From the NCBI GenBank assembly GCA_028909515.1, contig GCA_028909515.1_4811.1: DNA of 64,000 nucleotides. One strand, given 5' to 3'. Positions 25,537 to 33,545 of this stretch are shown here, piece after piece. This DNA is from a phage. Positions within the stretch are counted from its first letter, which is position 1; every line of letters starts with the position of its first letter. The position numbers and the translations under genes were made by a program. The notes beneath the pieces are model-generated. The model worked only from the letters and a program-made list of their open reading frames with translations, was not told where the DNA came from and searched no databases.

Positions 25537-25731
25537 ATCGTTGGTGTAGTTGGAAGCTGAAACGACTCGCCTGGGCCAATGCCGCCAATTCTGCTGGGGT
25601 TATCACCGCTGGCGTTGGTTCGGTATGGGATGGCGAAGGCCGTTGGGATTCGCTGTGTGGCACGCGCCTATTCTTTCGCGTAAAATAATTATCACCCTTC
25701 CCGATATGGGAAGGGAATTAAAGAGGTTATC

Positions 25732-29284: not shown

Positions 29285-29533
29285 ATGAATCAAAATGAAT
29301 CAGTAGCATTCTTACAATGGCTGGAAGGTGTGGTGGAGTATTACGCTCCAAAAGACCGCTTCATCTTTCAAGGAAAAAGTTACAAGCGCAAAGGGCAGGC
29401 CCAGAAAGCTGCGCGCAAGTACTGGAAAGAAGTTTATTCAGAATTTTTCTCTCAGATGGGAATCATCGGCGCAACGGTGTCCGGCGACCCTGCACAATTG
29501 GTATCGATTGATGAATCCAATCGTCACAATTAA
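29285..29533 (+). CDS. Hypothetical protein
   Basis: 82 aa ORF. Confidence 0.4.
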   Translation: MNQNESVAFLQWLEGVVEYYAPKDRFIFQGKSYKRKGQAQKAARKYWKEVYSEFFSQMGIIGATVSGDPAQLVSIDESNRHN

Positions 29534-29608
29534 TAAATCGATTTGAATGCCGCGCTATGCGGCTTTATTATAGTTATTGTTAATCACCCAAATATTAAAG
29601 GTAATGAT

Positions 29609-29989
29609 ATGTCAAATAAAAATGATTCTATGAGCCACACATATACTAAAGGCAGCGGCACCGCTTTTGGTTCAAGTATGAAAATTGACGCTCCATCTTG
29701 CTATTCTGATGGATTGGAAGTTGGCAACCGTGACTTGACATGGGTTTTACGTCGCCAATCCGATTTAGAAGAGAAGTTGGAAAATATTGAGCGTTCTCTT
29801 GAAAGTCTGCGCGACCAGCTTTTTGGTTGTTCTGGAGATGAGTCAAAACCTGTATCATATGCAGCCAATCGCGGTTTGATTGATAATATGCTTGCTATTA
29901 CCGCTCGATCAATTGGTAAAACTGTGTCCATTGAATCATTGATCAGCCAGATTGCGGATGGCTTTGGTGATGCCCATAAGAGTGAGTAG
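29609..29989 (+). CDS. Hypothetical protein
   Basis: Internal ATG (MSNKNDS) chosen over the track start at 29543. Confidence 0.4.
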   Translation: MSNKNDSMSHTYTKGSGTAFGSSMKIDAPSCYSDGLEVGNRDLTWVLRRQSDLEEKLENIERSLESLRDQLFGCSGDESKPVSYAANRGLIDNMLAITARSIGKTVSIESLISQIADGFGDAHKSE

Positions 29990-30009
29990 TGGGTGTTGGT
30001 TATTTAACC

Positions 30010-30038
30010 GTGAATCGTGGGTCGTGAATCTTGGGTCG
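30010..30038. repeat. Tandem direct repeat GTGAATC(G/T)TGGGTCG, two copies
   Basis: Read directly at the left edge of the island. Confidence 0.6.
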
Positions 30039-30253
30039 CTTAGTGCGGCCCTTTCTTTTGCCTGCCGTGCAGGAGTGTACTGCAAATTTACTGTGGGTAC
30101 AAAATAGTACGGTACTGTCTAGGATTTTTTCTTTGAAAAGTTAGTGGACCAAATGTGTCGTATTTTGATTAGTGTACTACAAATTTCATCAAGTACCAAA
30201 ACGCACCAAAAGACCCATGCCATAAAAACCACACGAACGCAATAATCAATCGC

Positions 30254-30338
30254 CGTTACAGTTTCCAGCGTTACAATTCGAAAGCGAATGATTCGAAGCA
30301 TAATAATATGAAGCATAATGATTCGAAAGCGAATGATT
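30254..30338. repeat. Nested direct repeats in non-coding DNA
   Basis: ATTCGAAAGCGAATGATT twice, GAAGCATAAT twice between them, CGTTACA twice just upstream. The 18-mer contains a 5 bp palindrome. Confidence 0.6.
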
Positions 30339-30463
30339 GCGTGTAGGATAATATCGGTGGGGATTATTCTAGATGCATGTAATTTCGCATGCGTACTATT
30401 TTCGGACGAAGGGTCGGCATATTCCTCGTTTTAGTTCGGAACGAAGGGAAAGTTTTGCGCCTT

Positions 30464-30537
30464 TATAAAACAACGACTTACGCGACCCTCCCTAACGGTC
30501 CGATATAGGTGTCTATATAAAACAACGACTTACGCGA
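30464..30537. repeat. Perfect 22 bp direct repeat TATAAAACAACGACTTACGCGA, two copies
   Basis: Copies at 30464-30485 and 30516-30537. Confidence 0.7.
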
Positions 30538-30662
30538 TGTTCTCCATTTAACGTAATACCCGTTATGCGAACTAAGGCGCATCTCGGCGAAGATTATGCG
30601 ACGACGAAGGGAAGGATAAAGGAGTTTTCGCGGAGAAGCGCATCGGGATAGGGACGAAGAAA

Positions 30663-30681
30663 AGCCGCGACTAAGCGCGGC
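30663..30681 (-). terminator. Weak terminator-like hairpin after small acidic gene A
   Basis: GCCGCG, 6 nt loop, CGCGGC, followed on the minus strand by TTTTCTTCG. Confidence 0.3.
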
Positions 30682-30701
30682 CTATTAGTAACGGAAGGGT
30701 A

Positions 30702-30992
30702 TTATAAGGAGACGATTTTAAAATAAGTTACTTCGCCGCCAAGTTGCGGGACCGCGATATATTCGCCGCCGATTTCGGTAATCGTATAGACGAAGCCGTT
30801 GATGGTTACGCGGTAGGATACTACGTCCTCGTCGCGATACTTGTAAAGGTCGAGGAAGTTGATCGGCTCATAAATAGACTCGATAGTCGCGTCTACGTTA
30901 GAGAGATAAACGCTCTCTAAGGTTTCGCCAAATACGTTAGAGTTTTCGGAAGTCTCGACGCGAGCGGAACGGATAGCGGATAAAGTAATCAT
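30702..30992 (-). CDS. Small acidic protein, paralog A of a three-member family
   Basis: 96 aa. AGGAG site. Blocks shared with B and C, for example SVYLSNVDATIE with EVYAANVDQTIE. Confidence 0.55.
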   Translation of the reverse strand: MITLSAIRSARVETSENSNVFGETLESVYLSNVDATIESIYEPINFLDLYKYRDEDVVSYRVTINGFVYTITEIGGEYIAVPQLGGEVTYFKIVSL

Positions 30993-31016
30993 AATATTCT
31001 CCTAGTTAGTCGGGAG

Positions 31017-31037
31017 GGTAGCGACCTATTCGCTACC
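31017..31037 (-). promoter_or_regulatory. Leader hairpin in the 5' UTR of gene A
   Basis: On the transcribed strand: GGTAGCG, loop AATAGGT, CGCTACC. Lies between the -10 element and the ribosome-binding site. Confidence 0.5.
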
Positions 31038-31058
31038 TCATCCCCTCTCGATATAAAC

Positions 31059-31088
31059 ATTATAGTCTTAGTGTACGAATAAGTAAAG
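31059..31088 (-). promoter_or_regulatory. Sigma70-like promoter of gene A
   Basis: Transcribed strand reads GTGCTTTACTT...TTCGTACACT...TATAAT then GTTTATATCGAGAGG. Shared with the promoters of B and C. Confidence 0.5.
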
Positions 31089-31097
31089 CACTTTTCG

Positions 31098-31399
31098 TTA
31101 TTCTGCGATAAAATATTTATAAGCTTTATCGCCTTCTATATCGAGATACTCGACGATAATTAACGCTTCGCCGCGCGGCGTAACGGTTTCGATGAGGGTT
31201 ACGGTTTCGTCGTCGGCCCGAATGAAGCGGATGGCGCTACGTTCGGCGTACTTAATCTCGTCGAAGGAAAGGCCGACGAAGGCGACCGCGCGGACTTTAA
31301 TTCCGCTCCACTCTAGTTCCGCGTTAACGGCTTTAAGAAGAGAAGCGACGGTTAAGCGGTCTTCGTCGTAAGTAAGAAGAGAAGAAATTAAAGTAGCCA
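31098..31399 (-). CDS. Small acidic protein, paralog C
   Basis: ATG MATLISSLL with a GGGAG site, chosen over the longer track ORF (31098-31457). Confidence 0.5.
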
Positions 31400-31457
31400 T
31401 AATAAAACTCCCGATGCTAGTAGAAGGAAGGGCCATCACCCGTCTCGATATAAACAA

Positions 31458-31485
31458 GTATACGCGAGTGTACGAAGAAGTAAAG
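31458..31485 (-). promoter_or_regulatory. Sigma70-like promoter of gene C
   Basis: Transcribed strand reads CTTTACTTCTTCGTACACT...TATACT then TGTTTATATCGAGACGG. Back to back with the promoter of B. Confidence 0.45.
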
Positions 31486-31528
31486 AAAAAAAGATAAAAT
31501 AATTTATCTCATTTTTATCGAAAAAGTG

Positions 31529-31557
31529 CTTTACTTTTTTCTACACTATATTATAAT
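31529..31557 (+). promoter_or_regulatory. Sigma70-like promoter of gene B
   Basis: GTGCTTTACTTTTTTCTACACT...TATAAT then GTACTCATATCGGGACGG. Confidence 0.5.
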
Positions 31558-31580
31558 GTACTCATATCGGGACGGGATGA

Positions 31581-31601
31581 GTTAACGAATAGGTCGTTAA
31601 C
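31581..31601 (+). promoter_or_regulatory. Leader hairpin in the 5' UTR of gene B
   Basis: GTTAACG, loop AATAGGT, CGTTAAC. Same loop as the gene A hairpin; two stem positions differ and both are compensated. Confidence 0.5.
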
Positions 31602-31625
31602 GCCTCTCCCAACTAGGAGTTTAAA

Positions 31626-31910
31626 ATGGCTATTCTTAACGTTTCTTCTATTCGCAACGCTATCGTCGAGAACTACGGCGTAAAACAAATTTTATCCGAA
31701 GTCTACGCCGCGAACGTAGACCAAACTATCGAGGCGGGTGGGGTAACGGTCGCCGAGGCTTTTAAACTTTACGCGGCGCTACCGGAATCGGACCGCGAAG
31801 CCTTCGAAGTAAACGTTAACGGATACTTCTTCGAAGCGGTCGAAATCGGTAACATCTTACTCGTTATGGGCGAAGAAGAATTTGAGACCTTCTCCCTCGT
31901 CGAAGCGTAA
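31626..31910 (+). CDS. Small acidic protein, paralog B
   Basis: 94 aa. AGGAG site. All 7 Leu codons are non-CTG and both Gln codons are CAA. Confidence 0.55.
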   Translation: MAILNVSSIRNAIVENYGVKQILSEVYAANVDQTIEAGGVTVAEAFKLYAALPESDREAFEVNVNGYFFEAVEIGNILLVMGEEEFETFSLVEA

Positions 31911-31990
31911 GAGAGGATTTTTAGAGCGTCGTGCGCGGCGCTTTAATAAAATTCTTTCGCGCCTAGCGCCCTAACAAATAGGAGTTTATT

Positions 31991-32617
31991 ATGGTTAGCT
32001 TAAATCGTTTCTCGACTAGCGGCGACGTTATCGCAACTAAGACCGCCGACCTCGTTGCATTTTATAATGCAAATTCCGGTTCGAAGCCGATTAAGAAATT
32101 TGCGGACCGCCGGACCGCCGAGACTCGCGTAATCGCGTTAATCGAGTCCTTAAACGCGCTCGATGAGCCGTCCAACGAATCGCCCATTCCCGACGCGAAG
32201 CCGCGCGAGGAAGTGTCCAGCGATGTAAAAACGCATAAGGCGCGCGCGGTCGTTAAAAAGGCCGAGCCGACCCAGGAAGAACTCGACGCGATGAGCGATG
32301 AAGAGTATGAAGCCTTCGTTAAGAGCGGCTTAAACGATAGTGCGAATTGCGTAGTGCAAAATGGAACTCCTTCCCATCGCCGTTCGAATAGCGAAGGTAT
32401 TGCAAAAAGTTGGGATAATAAGGAAGTGGCGCAAAAGCGTCTTACTCGTAACGGTGTTATGGTCGAGGGTGTAGGCGAGTTCAAATCGGTCCGCGTAGCG
32501 TTCGCCGCGCTGGGCTTACCGGATAGCAAGCATATTCGCTTCCGCATGAAGCTTAAAGAAGCTGGACGCTTAAACTTCGAGTTCGGCAACAAGTCCTACA
32601 CCTTCCAGATTATCTAA
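31991..32617 (+). CDS. Hypothetical protein with island-type codon usage
   Basis: 208 aa. AGGAG site. CpG-rich codons. Contains two copies of the ATAGTGC(A/G)AAT DNA motif in different reading frames. Confidence 0.5.
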   Translation: MVSLNRFSTSGDVIATKTADLVAFYNANSGSKPIKKFADRRTAETRVIALIESLNALDEPSNESPIPDAKPREEVSSDVKTHKARAVVKKAEPTQEELDAMSDEEYEAFVKSGLNDSANCVVQNGTPSHRRSNSEGIAKSWDNKEVAQKRLTRNGVMVEGVGEFKSVRVAFAALGLPDSKHIRFRMKLKEAGRLNFEFGNKSYTFQII

Positions 32618-33545
32618 TCGAATGGCGGCCCTTCGGGGTCGCTTTTCATAGTGCAAATTGGTGGATTATGAATACTCTTATTCTCATCGCTACGTTGTCC
32701 ATCGGAAGTGGTCGCACCTTATCCCTTTATGACCATAGTGCAAATTGCGCTTACCCTACGCGCGTTGCGGCGATAGTTAATAGTGCAAATAAGATGCTAT
32801 TCGAGACTTGCTGGCGGGTCGATAACGAGAAAGGTCGGGTAGTCTTAGGTTATAGTGCAAATCTGCTGGTGGAGTCGTTCGATTGGACGGCTGAAGGTCG
32901 TAAATTGTTACGTAAAGTGACTAAAAGATGACTTATAATAATACACTTTCTAACGCGTTTATGGTTGCAACCTTCCCCGTCGTATTACCGACGGCCCTAG
33001 AAGTGGAGAAAATGTGTTCTAGGGCCGTTTTATAGTGCAAATTGGCTAGTGGCGGGAGAATTGCTCGCCTTCTTTGGCCGCCTCTCCAAAATCCTTGTAG
33101 AAATCGTCCATAGAACGGCCCATTTTACTATTGCCGTTTTCATCAATCATCGTGATGCCGTAGATGATATTCAGTTCACGAATAGCATTAAGCTTGGCTG
33201 ACGCCGCGACTTCTGGATCACGCACAAGCTTGACCAAATTGTGAATTGCACCTTTTACGCTCCACAAATCCTTGAGTGGCATCTCTTCCATACGCTTTTT
33301 GAAGCGCATTTTGTAGTATGGGTTGCGTTGCGCGCAAAGGATTCGCTGGCCAGTGTAGTTATCCGTTGCAACTTCCATTCCAAATACTAGTGCAAAAGCT
33401 GCGCGCATGTCATGGCCCTGAATAACAAGGTCAATGAACTCATCGAATAAAGCCTGATTGTGCTCTGCAAATCGCGGGTCTTCAAAGTCTTCAGGCATCG
33501 CTACATAATCTTGACTCATAGTGCAAAATCCCATAGTGCAAATTA
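32336..33545 (+). repeat. Same-orientation array of an 11 bp motif, ATAGTGCAAAT, at least 8 copies
   Basis: Copies near 32336 (variant), 32351 (variant), 32648, 32735, 32780, 32852, 33032, 33518 (variant) and 33534. Present in coding and non-coding DNA and in different frames. Confidence 0.6.
33046..33534 (-). CDS. Hypothetical early protein
   Basis: 162 aa. The start region overlaps two copies of the 11 bp motif; an alternative ATG lies at 33519. Confidence 0.45.
   Translation of the reverse strand: MGFCTMSQDYVAMPEDFEDPRFAEHNQALFDEFIDLVIQGHDMRAAFALVFGMEVATDNYTGQRILCAQRNPYYKMRFKKRMEEMPLKDLWSVKGAIHNLVKLVRDPEVAASAKLNAIRELNIIYGITMIDENGNSKMGRSMDDFYKDFGEAAKEGEQFSRH

What the first reader, a model, noticed from the sequence alone, without database searches (positions are those of the whole stretch)
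31017..31601. Covarying hairpin in the 5' leaders of genes A and B
Leader A (minus strand) carries GGTAGCG-AATAGGT-CGCTACC and leader B (plus strand) carries GTTAACG-AATAGGT-CGTTAAC. The loop is identical; two of seven stem positions differ and both changes are compensated. Both hairpins are flanked by GGGATGAG upstream and a CTCCC tract that could pair with the AGGAG ribosome-binding site. This is evidence of selection on RNA structure and fits a translational operator, thermometer or riboswitch-like platform. The paralog C leader lacks the hairpin.
Basis: seen in the sequence. Interest (0 to 1): 0.8.

Follow-up and report, generated by a model that had tools for sequence, protein, structure and literature searches.

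The report
Conserved hairpin in phage early-mRNA leaders
Two early genes of an E. coli phage (genus Wifcevirus) start their messages with the same small RNA hairpin, which evolution has kept folded; it most likely boosts or stabilises early expression, but its exact job has not been measured.

Summary
Hairpin A (31017-31037, minus) and hairpin B (31581-31601, plus) exist as described. Each is an 8-bp stem with an AUAGG loop.

The window is a Wifcevirus coliphage. The hairpins lie inside its ~3.7 kb direct terminal repeat. Each sits just downstream of one of three near-identical sigma-70 promoter/leader modules (A, B, C).

In about 35 related genomes and contigs the stem keeps pairing. Pair 2 occurs as G-C, U-A or C-G, and pair 5 as G-C, A-U or G·U. 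Three single-sided changes are all G·U on the sense strand. One mismatch (kaset) is compensated in EC150.

Each hairpin caps a longer 5'-proximal hairpin, whose lower stem joins the purine-rich first transcribed bases to the CU tract. That lower stem also covaries. Leader C has a shorter hairpin at the same position, with a different sequence in different relatives. T7 promoter A1 has the same first ten transcribed bases and an analogous covarying 5' hairpin.

So selection on RNA structure is supported. Riboswitch, terminator and DNA-operator readings are rejected, and the anti-SD/thermometer reading is weakened. My best guess (0.4) is a 5' structure that stabilises or insulates the mRNA. The conserved 11-nt apex hints at a bound factor (0.25). 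This is a new member of a known kind, of moderate interest.

The parts
31059..31087 (-). Sigma-70-type promoter of module A (TTTACT, 17-nt spacer, TATAAT), preceded by an A-rich tract
   Evidence: Promoter scan, 10 of 12 matches; sequence; shared CTTTACTT-N6-ACACT motif
31041..31054 (-). Predicted start and initial transcribed sequence of A: ATATCGAGAGGGGA. The predicted +1 is near 31052. ATCGAGAGGG is identical to T7 A1 +1 to +10.
   Evidence: The start site is inferred from spacing to the -10 box and is not mapped.
31017..31037 (-). Upper hairpin A: GGUAGCGA-AUAGG-UCGCUACC
31012..31044 (-). Extended 5' hairpin A: lower stem GGGA (31041-31044) pairs with UCCC (31012-31015); internal loop UGA/C; then the upper hairpin
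   Evidence: Minimum-free-energy folds; lower-stem variants UUCC and GCCC
30999..31003 (-). Shine-Dalgarno AGGAG of gene A (start codon 30990-30992)
   Evidence: RBS annotated in phage Mansfield
30702..30992 (-). Gene A: 96 aa, acidic (pI 4.2), unknown function, found only in Wifcevirus
30662..30683 (-). Terminator-like hairpin after gene A
   Evidence: terminators annotated at the same place in Mansfield, WFC and WFH
31530..31557 (+). Sigma-70-type promoter of module B (TTTACT, 16-nt spacer, TATAAT)
31564..31580 (+). Predicted start and initial transcribed sequence of B: ATATCGGGACGGGATGA
   Evidence: The start site is inferred.
31581..31601 (+). Upper hairpin B: GUUAACGA-AUAGG-UCGUUAAC
31569..31610 (+). 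Extended 5' hairpin B: lower stem GGGA-C-GGG pairs with CUC-UCCC; internal loop AUGA/GC; then the upper hairpin
   Evidence: The lower stem is re-made as GACGGG/CCCGUC (L065 lineage) and AAGGAG/CUCCUU (L203).
31615..31619 (+). Shine-Dalgarno AGGAG of gene B (start codon 31626-31628)
31626..31910 (+). Gene B: 94 aa, acidic (pI 4.05), paralog of A. It is followed by the 208-aa and 87-aa genes of the same operon.
31457..31484 (-). Sigma-70-type promoter of module C (TTTACT, 16-nt spacer, TATACT)
31430..31441 (-). Short 5' hairpin of leader C: GGGU-GAUG-GCCC. The position is conserved but the sequence varies among relatives.
31098..31400 (-). Gene C: 100 aa, acidic. Not detectably related to A or B.

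Best explanation
The two hairpins are real, selected RNA stem-loops. Each is the top of a two-part hairpin that begins about 5-9 nt from the predicted 5' end of an immediate-early mRNA. These mRNAs are made by host RNA polymerase from near-identical strong sigma-70 promoters in the phage's terminal repeat.

The lower stem pairs the purine-rich, SD-like first transcribed bases (GGGA...) with the downstream CU-rich, anti-SD-like tract. An AUGA internal loop and the 8-bp upper stem with its AUAGG loop sit on top.

Most likely mechanism (inferred, not shown): the structure forms as soon as it is transcribed. It locks away both the decoy SD-like tract and the CU tract, so the true SD 8-10 nt downstream stays available. 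It also shields the 5' end from 5'-end-dependent decay (RppH, RNase E). The result would be fast, high and context-independent expression of the first genes of a very fast phage.

The nearly invariant 11-nt apex (CGA-AUAGG-UCG), shared by the A and B leaders, suggests that a factor may additionally recognise it.
For: Structure shown:
- 96.9% of stem cells pair across 8 distinct hairpins, and 0 of 500 shuffles reach the covariation score.
- Pair 2 occurs as G-C, U-A or C-G. Pair 5 occurs as G-C, A-U or G·U.
- All three single-sided transitions give G·U on the sense strand and C·A on the antisense strand (96.9% vs 92.2% paired).
- The kaset mismatch is compensated in EC150.
- All 14 A/B variants fold locally into the same two-part hairpin, at -17 to -21 kcal/mol, with the lower stem re-made by different sequences.

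Generic structural role:
- Leader C carries five different hairpin sequences at the same position in close relatives.
- Kylevirus and Asteriusvirus early leaders have unrelated hairpins in the same layout.
- T7-like A1 leaders have a covarying tripartite 5' hairpin after the identical ATCGAGAGGG.

Constraint on the leader:
- The promoter plus leader is 99-100% identical where the downstream coding sequences are only 75-82% identical.

Context:
- The region lies in the direct terminal repeat.
- One study, cited in the BASEL collection paper, reports a 3-5 minute cycle for the genus.
Against: - No start-site mapping or half-life data exist. The predicted 4-5 unpaired 5' nucleotides are at the upper limit for protection by a 5'-terminal stem-loop (from my knowledge of the ompA work).
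- A generic stabiliser would not need the conserved apex and the GAUGA internal loop.
- In the Kylevirus relatives, the homologous 208-aa gene has the same promoter class but no hairpin, so the hairpin is not indispensable.
- SD accessibility in predicted folds is variable.
- In T7 the A1 leader is cut away from the coding mRNAs by RNase III, so the analogous hairpin there cannot act as their 5' stabiliser.
Confidence: 0.4

Rival explanations
1. Operator for a trans-acting RNA-binding factor. A phage or host protein recognises the apical stem-loop (CGA-AUAGG-UCG, perhaps together with the GAUGA internal loop). It would coordinately repress translation, or trigger decay, of the A and B early transcripts as a form of early shut-off. 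Leader C would escape this control.
For: The 11-nt apex is identical in A and B although the outer stem differs at two pairs and the proteins are only 33% identical. It is unchanged even in the most divergent B leader, L203, whose upstream region is 82% identical. The element is present in exactly two copies per genome. In ECML-117-type genomes, where gene B is absent, it travels with the promoter module rather than with the gene.
Against: The upper hairpin ends 13-14 nt upstream of the SD and 24 nt upstream of the AUG, outside a typical operator position. One natural loop variant exists (AAUGGGU in L203). No candidate binder was found. A, B and C are acidic and mostly beta-strand. The 208-aa protein could not be modelled (pLDDT 40). 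Overall divergence among the genomes is low (5-8%), so loop invariance within the genus is weak evidence.
Confidence: 0.25
2. Co-transcriptional element that acts on RNA polymerase. The purine-rich initial transcribed sequence is selected for initiation and promoter escape. The hairpin forms right behind the polymerase. It would prevent backtracking or R-loop formation by the G-rich nascent RNA, or modify elongation in the manner of a put RNA.
For: The first 10 transcribed bases are identical to T7 A1. A -10/ITS stretch of 24-25 nt is shared with Asteriusvirus terminal-repeat promoters. In every group the G-rich tract is paired with a downstream CU tract. In T7 the equivalent covarying hairpin is not part of any mature coding mRNA, which points to a transcription-level role there.
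Against: This model does not need the conserved apical loop. No terminator lies between the hairpin and the genes that would require antitermination. Nothing resembles the two-stem put architecture or a boxA/boxB pair (sequence; Rfam negative). No paper in the searchable library reports such a role.
Confidence: 0.15
3. Anti-SD switch or RNA thermometer. The CUCCC tract alternately pairs with the SD (off) or with the 5' GGGA tract (on), with the hairpin acting as a clamp.
For: CUCC can pair with GGAG. In an 80-nt fold of leader A the minimum-free-energy structure uses this pairing, and P(SD unpaired) is 0.03. L203 leader B has a 5-bp CUCCU/AGGAG option.
Against: The L065/L191/L193 lineage replaces the tract with CCCGUCGAGA, which keeps 6 bp with the 5' strand and has no complementarity to the SD. 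Local co-transcriptional folds always choose the 5' partner. Only 4 bp are available in the window.
Confidence: 0.07
4. DNA-level palindromic operator (8-5-8 inverted repeat at about +16 to +36) bound by a dimeric repressor that shuts the early promoters.
For: The position and geometry resemble a classical operator just downstream of a promoter. Some relatives carry a small gene annotated 'transcriptional regulator' downstream of gene A.
Against: Symmetric compensatory differences are not expected for half-site recognition. Single-sided changes preserve pairing only on the sense strand. EC150 has a 1-nt insertion in one arm, which an RNA bulge tolerates but which would change half-site spacing in DNA. 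Complementarity extends asymmetrically into the lower stem. The regulator gene is absent from the window and from many genomes that keep the hairpin. A and B proteins are acidic and show no HTH.
Confidence: 0.05

Closest known systems
5' leader of the phage T7 early promoter A1 transcript
   Same: The host sigma-70 promoter is at a genome end. The first ten transcribed bases are identical (AUCGAGAGGG). A GGGA/UCCC stem carries a further stem-loop on top. The hairpin covaries among relatives: GGC/GCC becomes GGU/ACC, and UCGA/UCGA becomes UCA/UGA.
   Different: The T7 upper stem is 3 bp with a GAAUA loop, against 8 bp with AUAGG here. No gene follows directly in T7, because the leader is removed by RNase III. 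The phage families are unrelated. I could find no described function for the T7 hairpin.
5'-terminal stabilising stem-loops (ompA 5' UTR type; synthetic 5' hairpins)
   Same: A stable hairpin lies close to the 5' end and upstream of a free SD. Structure is conserved more than sequence in the lower stem and in C-type leaders.
   Different: The predicted 4-5 unpaired 5' nucleotides are borderline for protection. The apex sequence is conserved. Stabilisation has not been measured.
Phage translational operator hairpins (MS2/PP7 coat-protein operators, T4 gp43 operator)
   Same: It is a small stem-loop with a conserved loop in a phage mRNA leader, and the stem covaries.
   Different: Those operators include or abut the SD or start codon and have a known protein partner. 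Here the hairpin ends 13-14 nt before the SD and no partner is known.
Lambda nut boxB and HK022 put RNAs
   Same: They are promoter-proximal RNA stem-loops in early phage transcripts that act in cis.
   Different: There is no boxA, no GNRA-like pentaloop and no two-stem put architecture. There is no downstream terminator to read through, and Rfam gives no match.
Bacillus phage SP82 polypurine 5' stabiliser
   Same: A purine-rich, SD-like sequence sits at the extreme 5' end of a phage early RNA.
   Different: Here the purine tract is paired within a hairpin rather than left free to bind ribosomes. The host is also different.

Membership tests
5'-terminal stabilising stem-loop | Hairpin begins within about 0-4 unpaired nucleotides of the mRNA 5' end | tested here: inconclusive
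   The start site is only predicted from spacing to the -10 box. Folds leave 4 (A) or 5 (B) unpaired nucleotides.
5'-terminal stabilising stem-loop | Structure, not sequence, is what is conserved | tested here: inconclusive
   Met for the lower stem and for C-type hairpins, which take many sequences at one position. Not met for the A/B apex, whose 11 nt are nearly invariant.
5'-terminal stabilising stem-loop | Lengthens mRNA half-life | not testable with these tools
   Needs a rifampicin chase or reporter assays.
Translational operator hairpin | Hairpin overlaps or abuts the SD or start codon | tested here: not met
   The upper hairpin ends 13 (A) or 13-14 (B) nt before AGGAG and 24 nt before the AUG.
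Translational operator hairpin | Cognate RNA-binding protein | tested here: inconclusive
   No candidate was found. A, B and C are acidic. The structure models were of low confidence.
RNA thermometer / anti-SD switch | SD sequestered in a conserved, imperfect helix | tested here: not met
   The SD lies outside the conserved helix. The 4-bp CUCC/GGAG option is lost in the L065 lineage.
Riboswitch | Match to a known aptamer, or a multi-helix ligand pocket | tested here: not met
   Rfam gathering search: 0 hits in the window. E-value search: one chance hit at E = 1.1 on the opposite strand. The element is a single hairpin of about 34-42 nt.
Intrinsic terminator / attenuator | GC-rich hairpin followed by a U-run | tested here: not met
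   The hairpins are followed by CCCUCCCGAC (A) and GCCUCUCCC (B). Neither was called by the terminator scan.
RNase III processing site (T7 R1.1 type) | About two turns (roughly 20 bp) of coaxial duplex | tested here: not met
   Only 12-15 bp in total, including the lower stem.
DNA palindromic operator | Conserved half-site sequence and fixed half-site spacing | tested here: not met
   The arms differ between A and B by compensatory changes. EC150 has a 1-nt insertion in one arm. The wobble changes are strand-specific.
Lambda nut (boxA + boxB) | A boxA element plus a boxB hairpin with a GNRA-like pentaloop | tested here: not met
   The leader sequences contain no CGCUCUUA-like boxA. The loop is AUAGG.

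The most novel reading that the evidence does not exclude
The A/B apical stem-loop, with the GAUGA internal loop, could be a specific docking site for a factor (RNA polymerase-associated or RNA-binding) that coordinately controls the two divergent immediate-early operons. It could also be one elaborated member of an unrecognised class of 'initial-transcribed-sequence hairpins' shared by host-polymerase early transcripts of unrelated coliphages (T7 A1, Wifcevirus, Kylevirus, Asteriusvirus), acting co-transcriptionally on the polymerase.
Probability: 0.2. Interest if true: 0.7.

Novelty: new member of a known kind. Interest (0 to 1): 0.4.

Why it matters
Wifcevirus phages are reported to complete infection within minutes, yet their early gene control has not been studied. 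A compact, strongly conserved promoter-leader module could explain very rapid early expression. It would also be a ready-made, portable expression part.

The same design recurs downstream of T7 A1, one of the most used promoters in transcription biochemistry, and in jumbo coliphages. The design is the identical first transcribed bases followed by a covarying 5' hairpin. This suggests a general rule for how phages build their first host-polymerase transcripts, and it can be tested directly with simple reporter, decay and in vitro transcription assays.

Tried and rejected
- My first pattern search used the wrong spacer length and found nothing. It was corrected.
- IMG/VR scans with the loop pattern and the promoter pattern returned mostly chance hits. 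Only Wifcevirus contigs carried a complementary 3' arm: 29 hits with 7 of 7 pairs, against a chance distribution peaking at 2-3 pairs.
- The covariance model R1 found no further copy in the window, nor in the T7, Kylevirus or Asteriusvirus loci.
- Rfam found nothing.
- Pfam and PHROGs gave no family for A, B or C.
- Autoregulation by A or B was rejected: the proteins are acidic, and the mostly beta-strand model has low confidence (pLDDT 63).
- The 208-aa operon protein was examined as a candidate factor. The homolog list held only proteins 98-100% identical. The single-sequence model was unusable (pLDDT 40). The PDB hit to the NusA N-terminal domain is not significant (E = 0.23).
- A loop complement (ACCTATT) that could form a kissing partner occurs nowhere else in the window.
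- A fourth module suspected at 25695 turned out to be an unrelated terminator-like hairpin.
- Literature searches found no description of the element, and no function for the T7 A1 5' hairpin.

Full report
**What the window is.** Region 29500-33500 is 92-95% identical to 29 Wifcevirus records: E. coli and Shigella myophages of 67-72 kb, including TH32, WFC, WFH, ECML-117, FEC19, Mansfield and BASEL phages Bas98-101. The Mansfield annotation places the homologous stretch inside a 3,673-bp direct terminal repeat. The WFC/WFH paper reports a repeat of about 3.7 kb. By offset from the Mansfield locus, the repeat corresponds to roughly window 30.2-33.9 kb. The finding therefore lies among the small, unannotated genes of the terminal repeat. 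By analogy with other terminally redundant phages these are probably immediate-early genes (inference).

**The observation.** The first and last 'loop' bases pair, which gives an 8-bp stem and an AUAGG pentaloop. The isolated hairpins fold at -11.7 kcal/mol (A) and -6.9 kcal/mol (B), with z-scores of about -4.7. The two stems differ at pairs 2 and 5, and both differences are compensated. For random placement of four differences this has p of about 0.002. A and B proteins are paralogs (33% identity, E = 5e-07). C is not detectably related to either.

**Anatomy.** The hairpins are parts of three promoter-leader modules. Each module has, in order:
- an A-rich tract;
- CTTTACTT-N6-ACACT, which contains the -35 box TTTACT;
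- TATAAT (TATACT in C);
- 4-6 nt;
- ATATCG(A/G)GA(G/C)GGG;
- a hairpin;
- a CU-rich tract;
- ACUA(A/G)C;
- the SD, then 7-8 nt, then AUG.

Counting from the -10 box, transcription should start at an A of ATATCG (inference). The hairpin region would then begin 5-9 nt into the RNA. 'GGGATGAG' is thus part of the initial transcribed sequence.

RNAfold pairs GGGA with the UCCC of the CU tract. This makes a two-part hairpin: lower stem, AUGA internal loop, upper stem. Leader C has only a short hairpin, GGGU-GAUG-GCCC, at the same place.

**Evidence from relatives.** I collected about 35 Wifcevirus loci from GenBank phages, IMG/VR, metagenomes and Logan assemblies. These yielded 17 distinct A/B leaders, plus further variants from the Logan contigs, notably L203.

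*Upper stem:*
- Pair 2 is G-C in A, U-A in B and C-G in L203-B.
- Pair 5 is G-C, A-U or G·U (G·U in the B leaders of ECML-117, RCIP0319, SP13 and F13).
- Pair 3 is U-A, or U·G in two independent cases (Bas99-A and Eco4M-7-B).
- kaset and L203-A carry an A·A mismatch at pair 3. EC150 carries the same 5' change with a re-matched 3' arm, GGAAGCG/CGC-C-UUCC.
- On 8 distinct hairpins, 96.9% of cells pair, and 0 of 500 shuffles reach the covariation score. Slid registers pair only 14-53%.
- The reverse complement pairs less well (92.2%), because all three single-sided transitions are G·U on the sense strand and C·A on the antisense strand. This, and the bulge in EC150, argue for RNA rather than a DNA palindrome.

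*Lower stem:* it is re-made by different sequences.
- A leaders: GGGA/UCCC, GGGA/UUCC (Mansfield) and GGG/CCC (TH32).
- B leaders: GGGA-GGG/CUC-UCCC, GGGACGG/CCG-C-UCCC (ECML-117), GACGGG/CCCGUC (L065, L191, L193) and AAGGAG/CUCCUU (L203).

All 14 variants tested fold to the same architecture at -17 to -21 kcal/mol.

*Leader C:* its hairpin appears as GGGC-GAUG-GCCC, AGAGGC-GAUG-GGCCUCU, GGGAG-GCGUU-CUCCC, GGGAG-ACACC-CUCCC and GAGAGGGGC-GAUGA-GCCUCUC. The position is conserved while the sequence is free.

*Apex:* the core CGA-AUAGG-UCG is constant in A and B, with one loop variant (AAUGGGU in L203-A).

*Leader versus gene:* the promoter plus leader is far more conserved than the genes it drives. 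It is 99-100% identical where the downstream coding sequences are 75-82% identical. Some alleles of protein A are only 61-63% identical. In ECML-117-type genomes gene B is missing, and the B-type leader directly precedes the 208-aa gene.

**How specific is the element?** A covariance model of the ITS plus upper hairpin (R1) scores 55 bits on the two known copies. Nothing else in the window scores above 13 bits, and nothing matches in the T7, Kylevirus or Asteriusvirus loci. Rfam has no match. The A/B-type hairpin is therefore specific to the genus.

**Wider context.**
- The first ten transcribed bases of A and C (AUCGAGAGGG) equal T7 A1 +1 to +10.
- The T7 A1 RNA folds as UCGA/UCGA + GGGA/UCCC + GGC-GAAUA-GCC. 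Among T7-like phages this hairpin covaries: GGC/GCC becomes GGU/ACC in Yersinia phage R and in 13a, and UCGA/UCGA becomes UCA/UGA in the HZ2R8 group.
- Kylevirus Pantoea phages are true relatives, with homologs of the 208-, 87- and 162-aa genes. They use the same promoter class. Some of their leaders have unrelated hairpins and some have none, including the leader of the 208-aa homolog.
- Asteriusvirus jumbo coliphages share TATAATGTTTTAYATCGAGAGGGG in their terminal repeats, followed by GAGGGGAA-loop-UUCCCCUC hairpins and an SD.
- In other phages GAGAGGG is itself the SD, as in ATCGAGAGGGAATAGATG.

The general design, a purine-rich start paired to a following CU tract, therefore recurs in unrelated phages. 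The Wifcevirus A/B leaders add an extra, sequence-conserved upper stem-loop.

**Interpretation.** It is shown that a conserved RNA structure on the sense strand sits near the 5' end of two early leaders. Function is inferred only.

I favour (0.4) a cis-acting 5' structure that protects the 5' end and insulates the SD from the flanking SD-like and anti-SD-like tracts. The reasons are that the position is conserved while most of the sequence is free, and that unrelated phages build the same layout.

The conserved apex keeps a factor-binding operator alive (0.25). The T7 parallel, where the leader is not part of the mature mRNAs, keeps a polymerase-level role alive (0.15).

The anti-SD/thermometer idea is weakened by the L065 lineage. 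A DNA operator is contradicted by strand-specific wobble, by the bulge and by the asymmetric lower stem. Riboswitch, terminator and RNase III site readings fail their defining features.

**Novelty.** No paper in the searchable library describes this element or assigns a function to the T7 A1 5' hairpin. I class it as a new member of a known kind, namely conserved 5'-UTR stem-loops of phage early mRNAs. Interest is moderate. It would be higher if the apex proves to be a factor-binding site, or if the cross-phage 'ITS-hairpin' design proves to act on RNA polymerase.

Noticed in passing
window 31042-31052 (minus), 31439-31449 (minus); L186 99-108: The initial transcribed sequence ATCGAGAGGG of leader A (ATCGAGACGGG in C) is identical to T7 promoter A1 +1 to +10. 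T7-like A1 leaders carry a covarying tripartite 5' hairpin.
   Followed up: partly
window 31041-31064 (minus); L189 1490-1545 and 2490-2545; L207, L234, L235, L239, L262: A 24-25 nt -10/ITS stretch, TATAATGTTTTAYATCGAGAGGGG, is shared with many early promoters in the terminal repeats of Asteriusvirus-like jumbo coliphages. Each of these is followed by a GAGGGGAA/UUCCCCUC hairpin and an SD.
   Followed up: partly
window 31033-31041 (minus) and 31577-31585 (plus): Two-codon mini-ORFs sit on the 5' side of the hairpins, directly after the SD-like GAGAGGGG: AUG-AGG-UAG in A and AUG-AGU-UAA (UAG in ECML-117) in B. The AUG is lost in EC150, kaset and L203-A, and is GUG in ECO71P1, so it is probably not essential.
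   Followed up: partly
hairpin apices: window 31026-31031 (minus) and 31587-31592 (plus); L186 116-121; L187 about 2515; L189 about 1524: The hexamer GAAUAG recurs at or near the apex of 5' hairpins in four phage groups (T7 A1, Wifcevirus A/B, Kylevirus, one Asteriusvirus leader), but in different structural registers. Whether this is chance or function is unresolved.
   Followed up: no
window 30702-31100 and 31518-31910, compared with L002, L006, L192, L201, L206: The promoter plus leader is 99-100% identical where the downstream coding sequences are only 75-82% identical (protein A alleles go down to 61%). The modules behave as conserved linkers between mosaic early genes.
   Followed up: partly
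L202 (phage F13), between genes F13_0027 and F13_0026: There is a second copy of the A-type promoter, leader and hairpin. Its SD is followed by AATATTACGCGCGG instead of an ATG, so it looks like a duplicated leader without its gene.
   Followed up: no
window 31401-31436 (minus): The AUG inside the leader C hairpin loop is in frame with gene C. Some GenBank records (SP13, F13) start gene C there (112 aa), although the SD GGGAG precedes the downstream AUG.
   Followed up: no
window 31991-32617 (plus): The basic 208-aa protein of the B operon is 98-100% conserved across more than 100 Wifcevirus entries and has Kylevirus homologs at 46-48%. Its only PDB sequence hit is a non-significant match (E = 0.23) to the NusA N-terminal domain.
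   Followed up: partly
L196, L197, L200 (AV128, RCIP0363, ECO71P1): An extra 51-aa gene lies between genes C and A in some relatives. A 69-aa gene annotated 'transcriptional regulator' lies downstream of gene A in ECML-117, FEC19, SP13 and F13, but is absent from the window.
   Followed up: no
window 25690-25715 (minus): The perfect hairpin CCCTTCCC-ATAT-CGGGAAGGG, at the end of a convergent gene pair, is terminator-like and unrelated to the leader modules.
   Followed up: no
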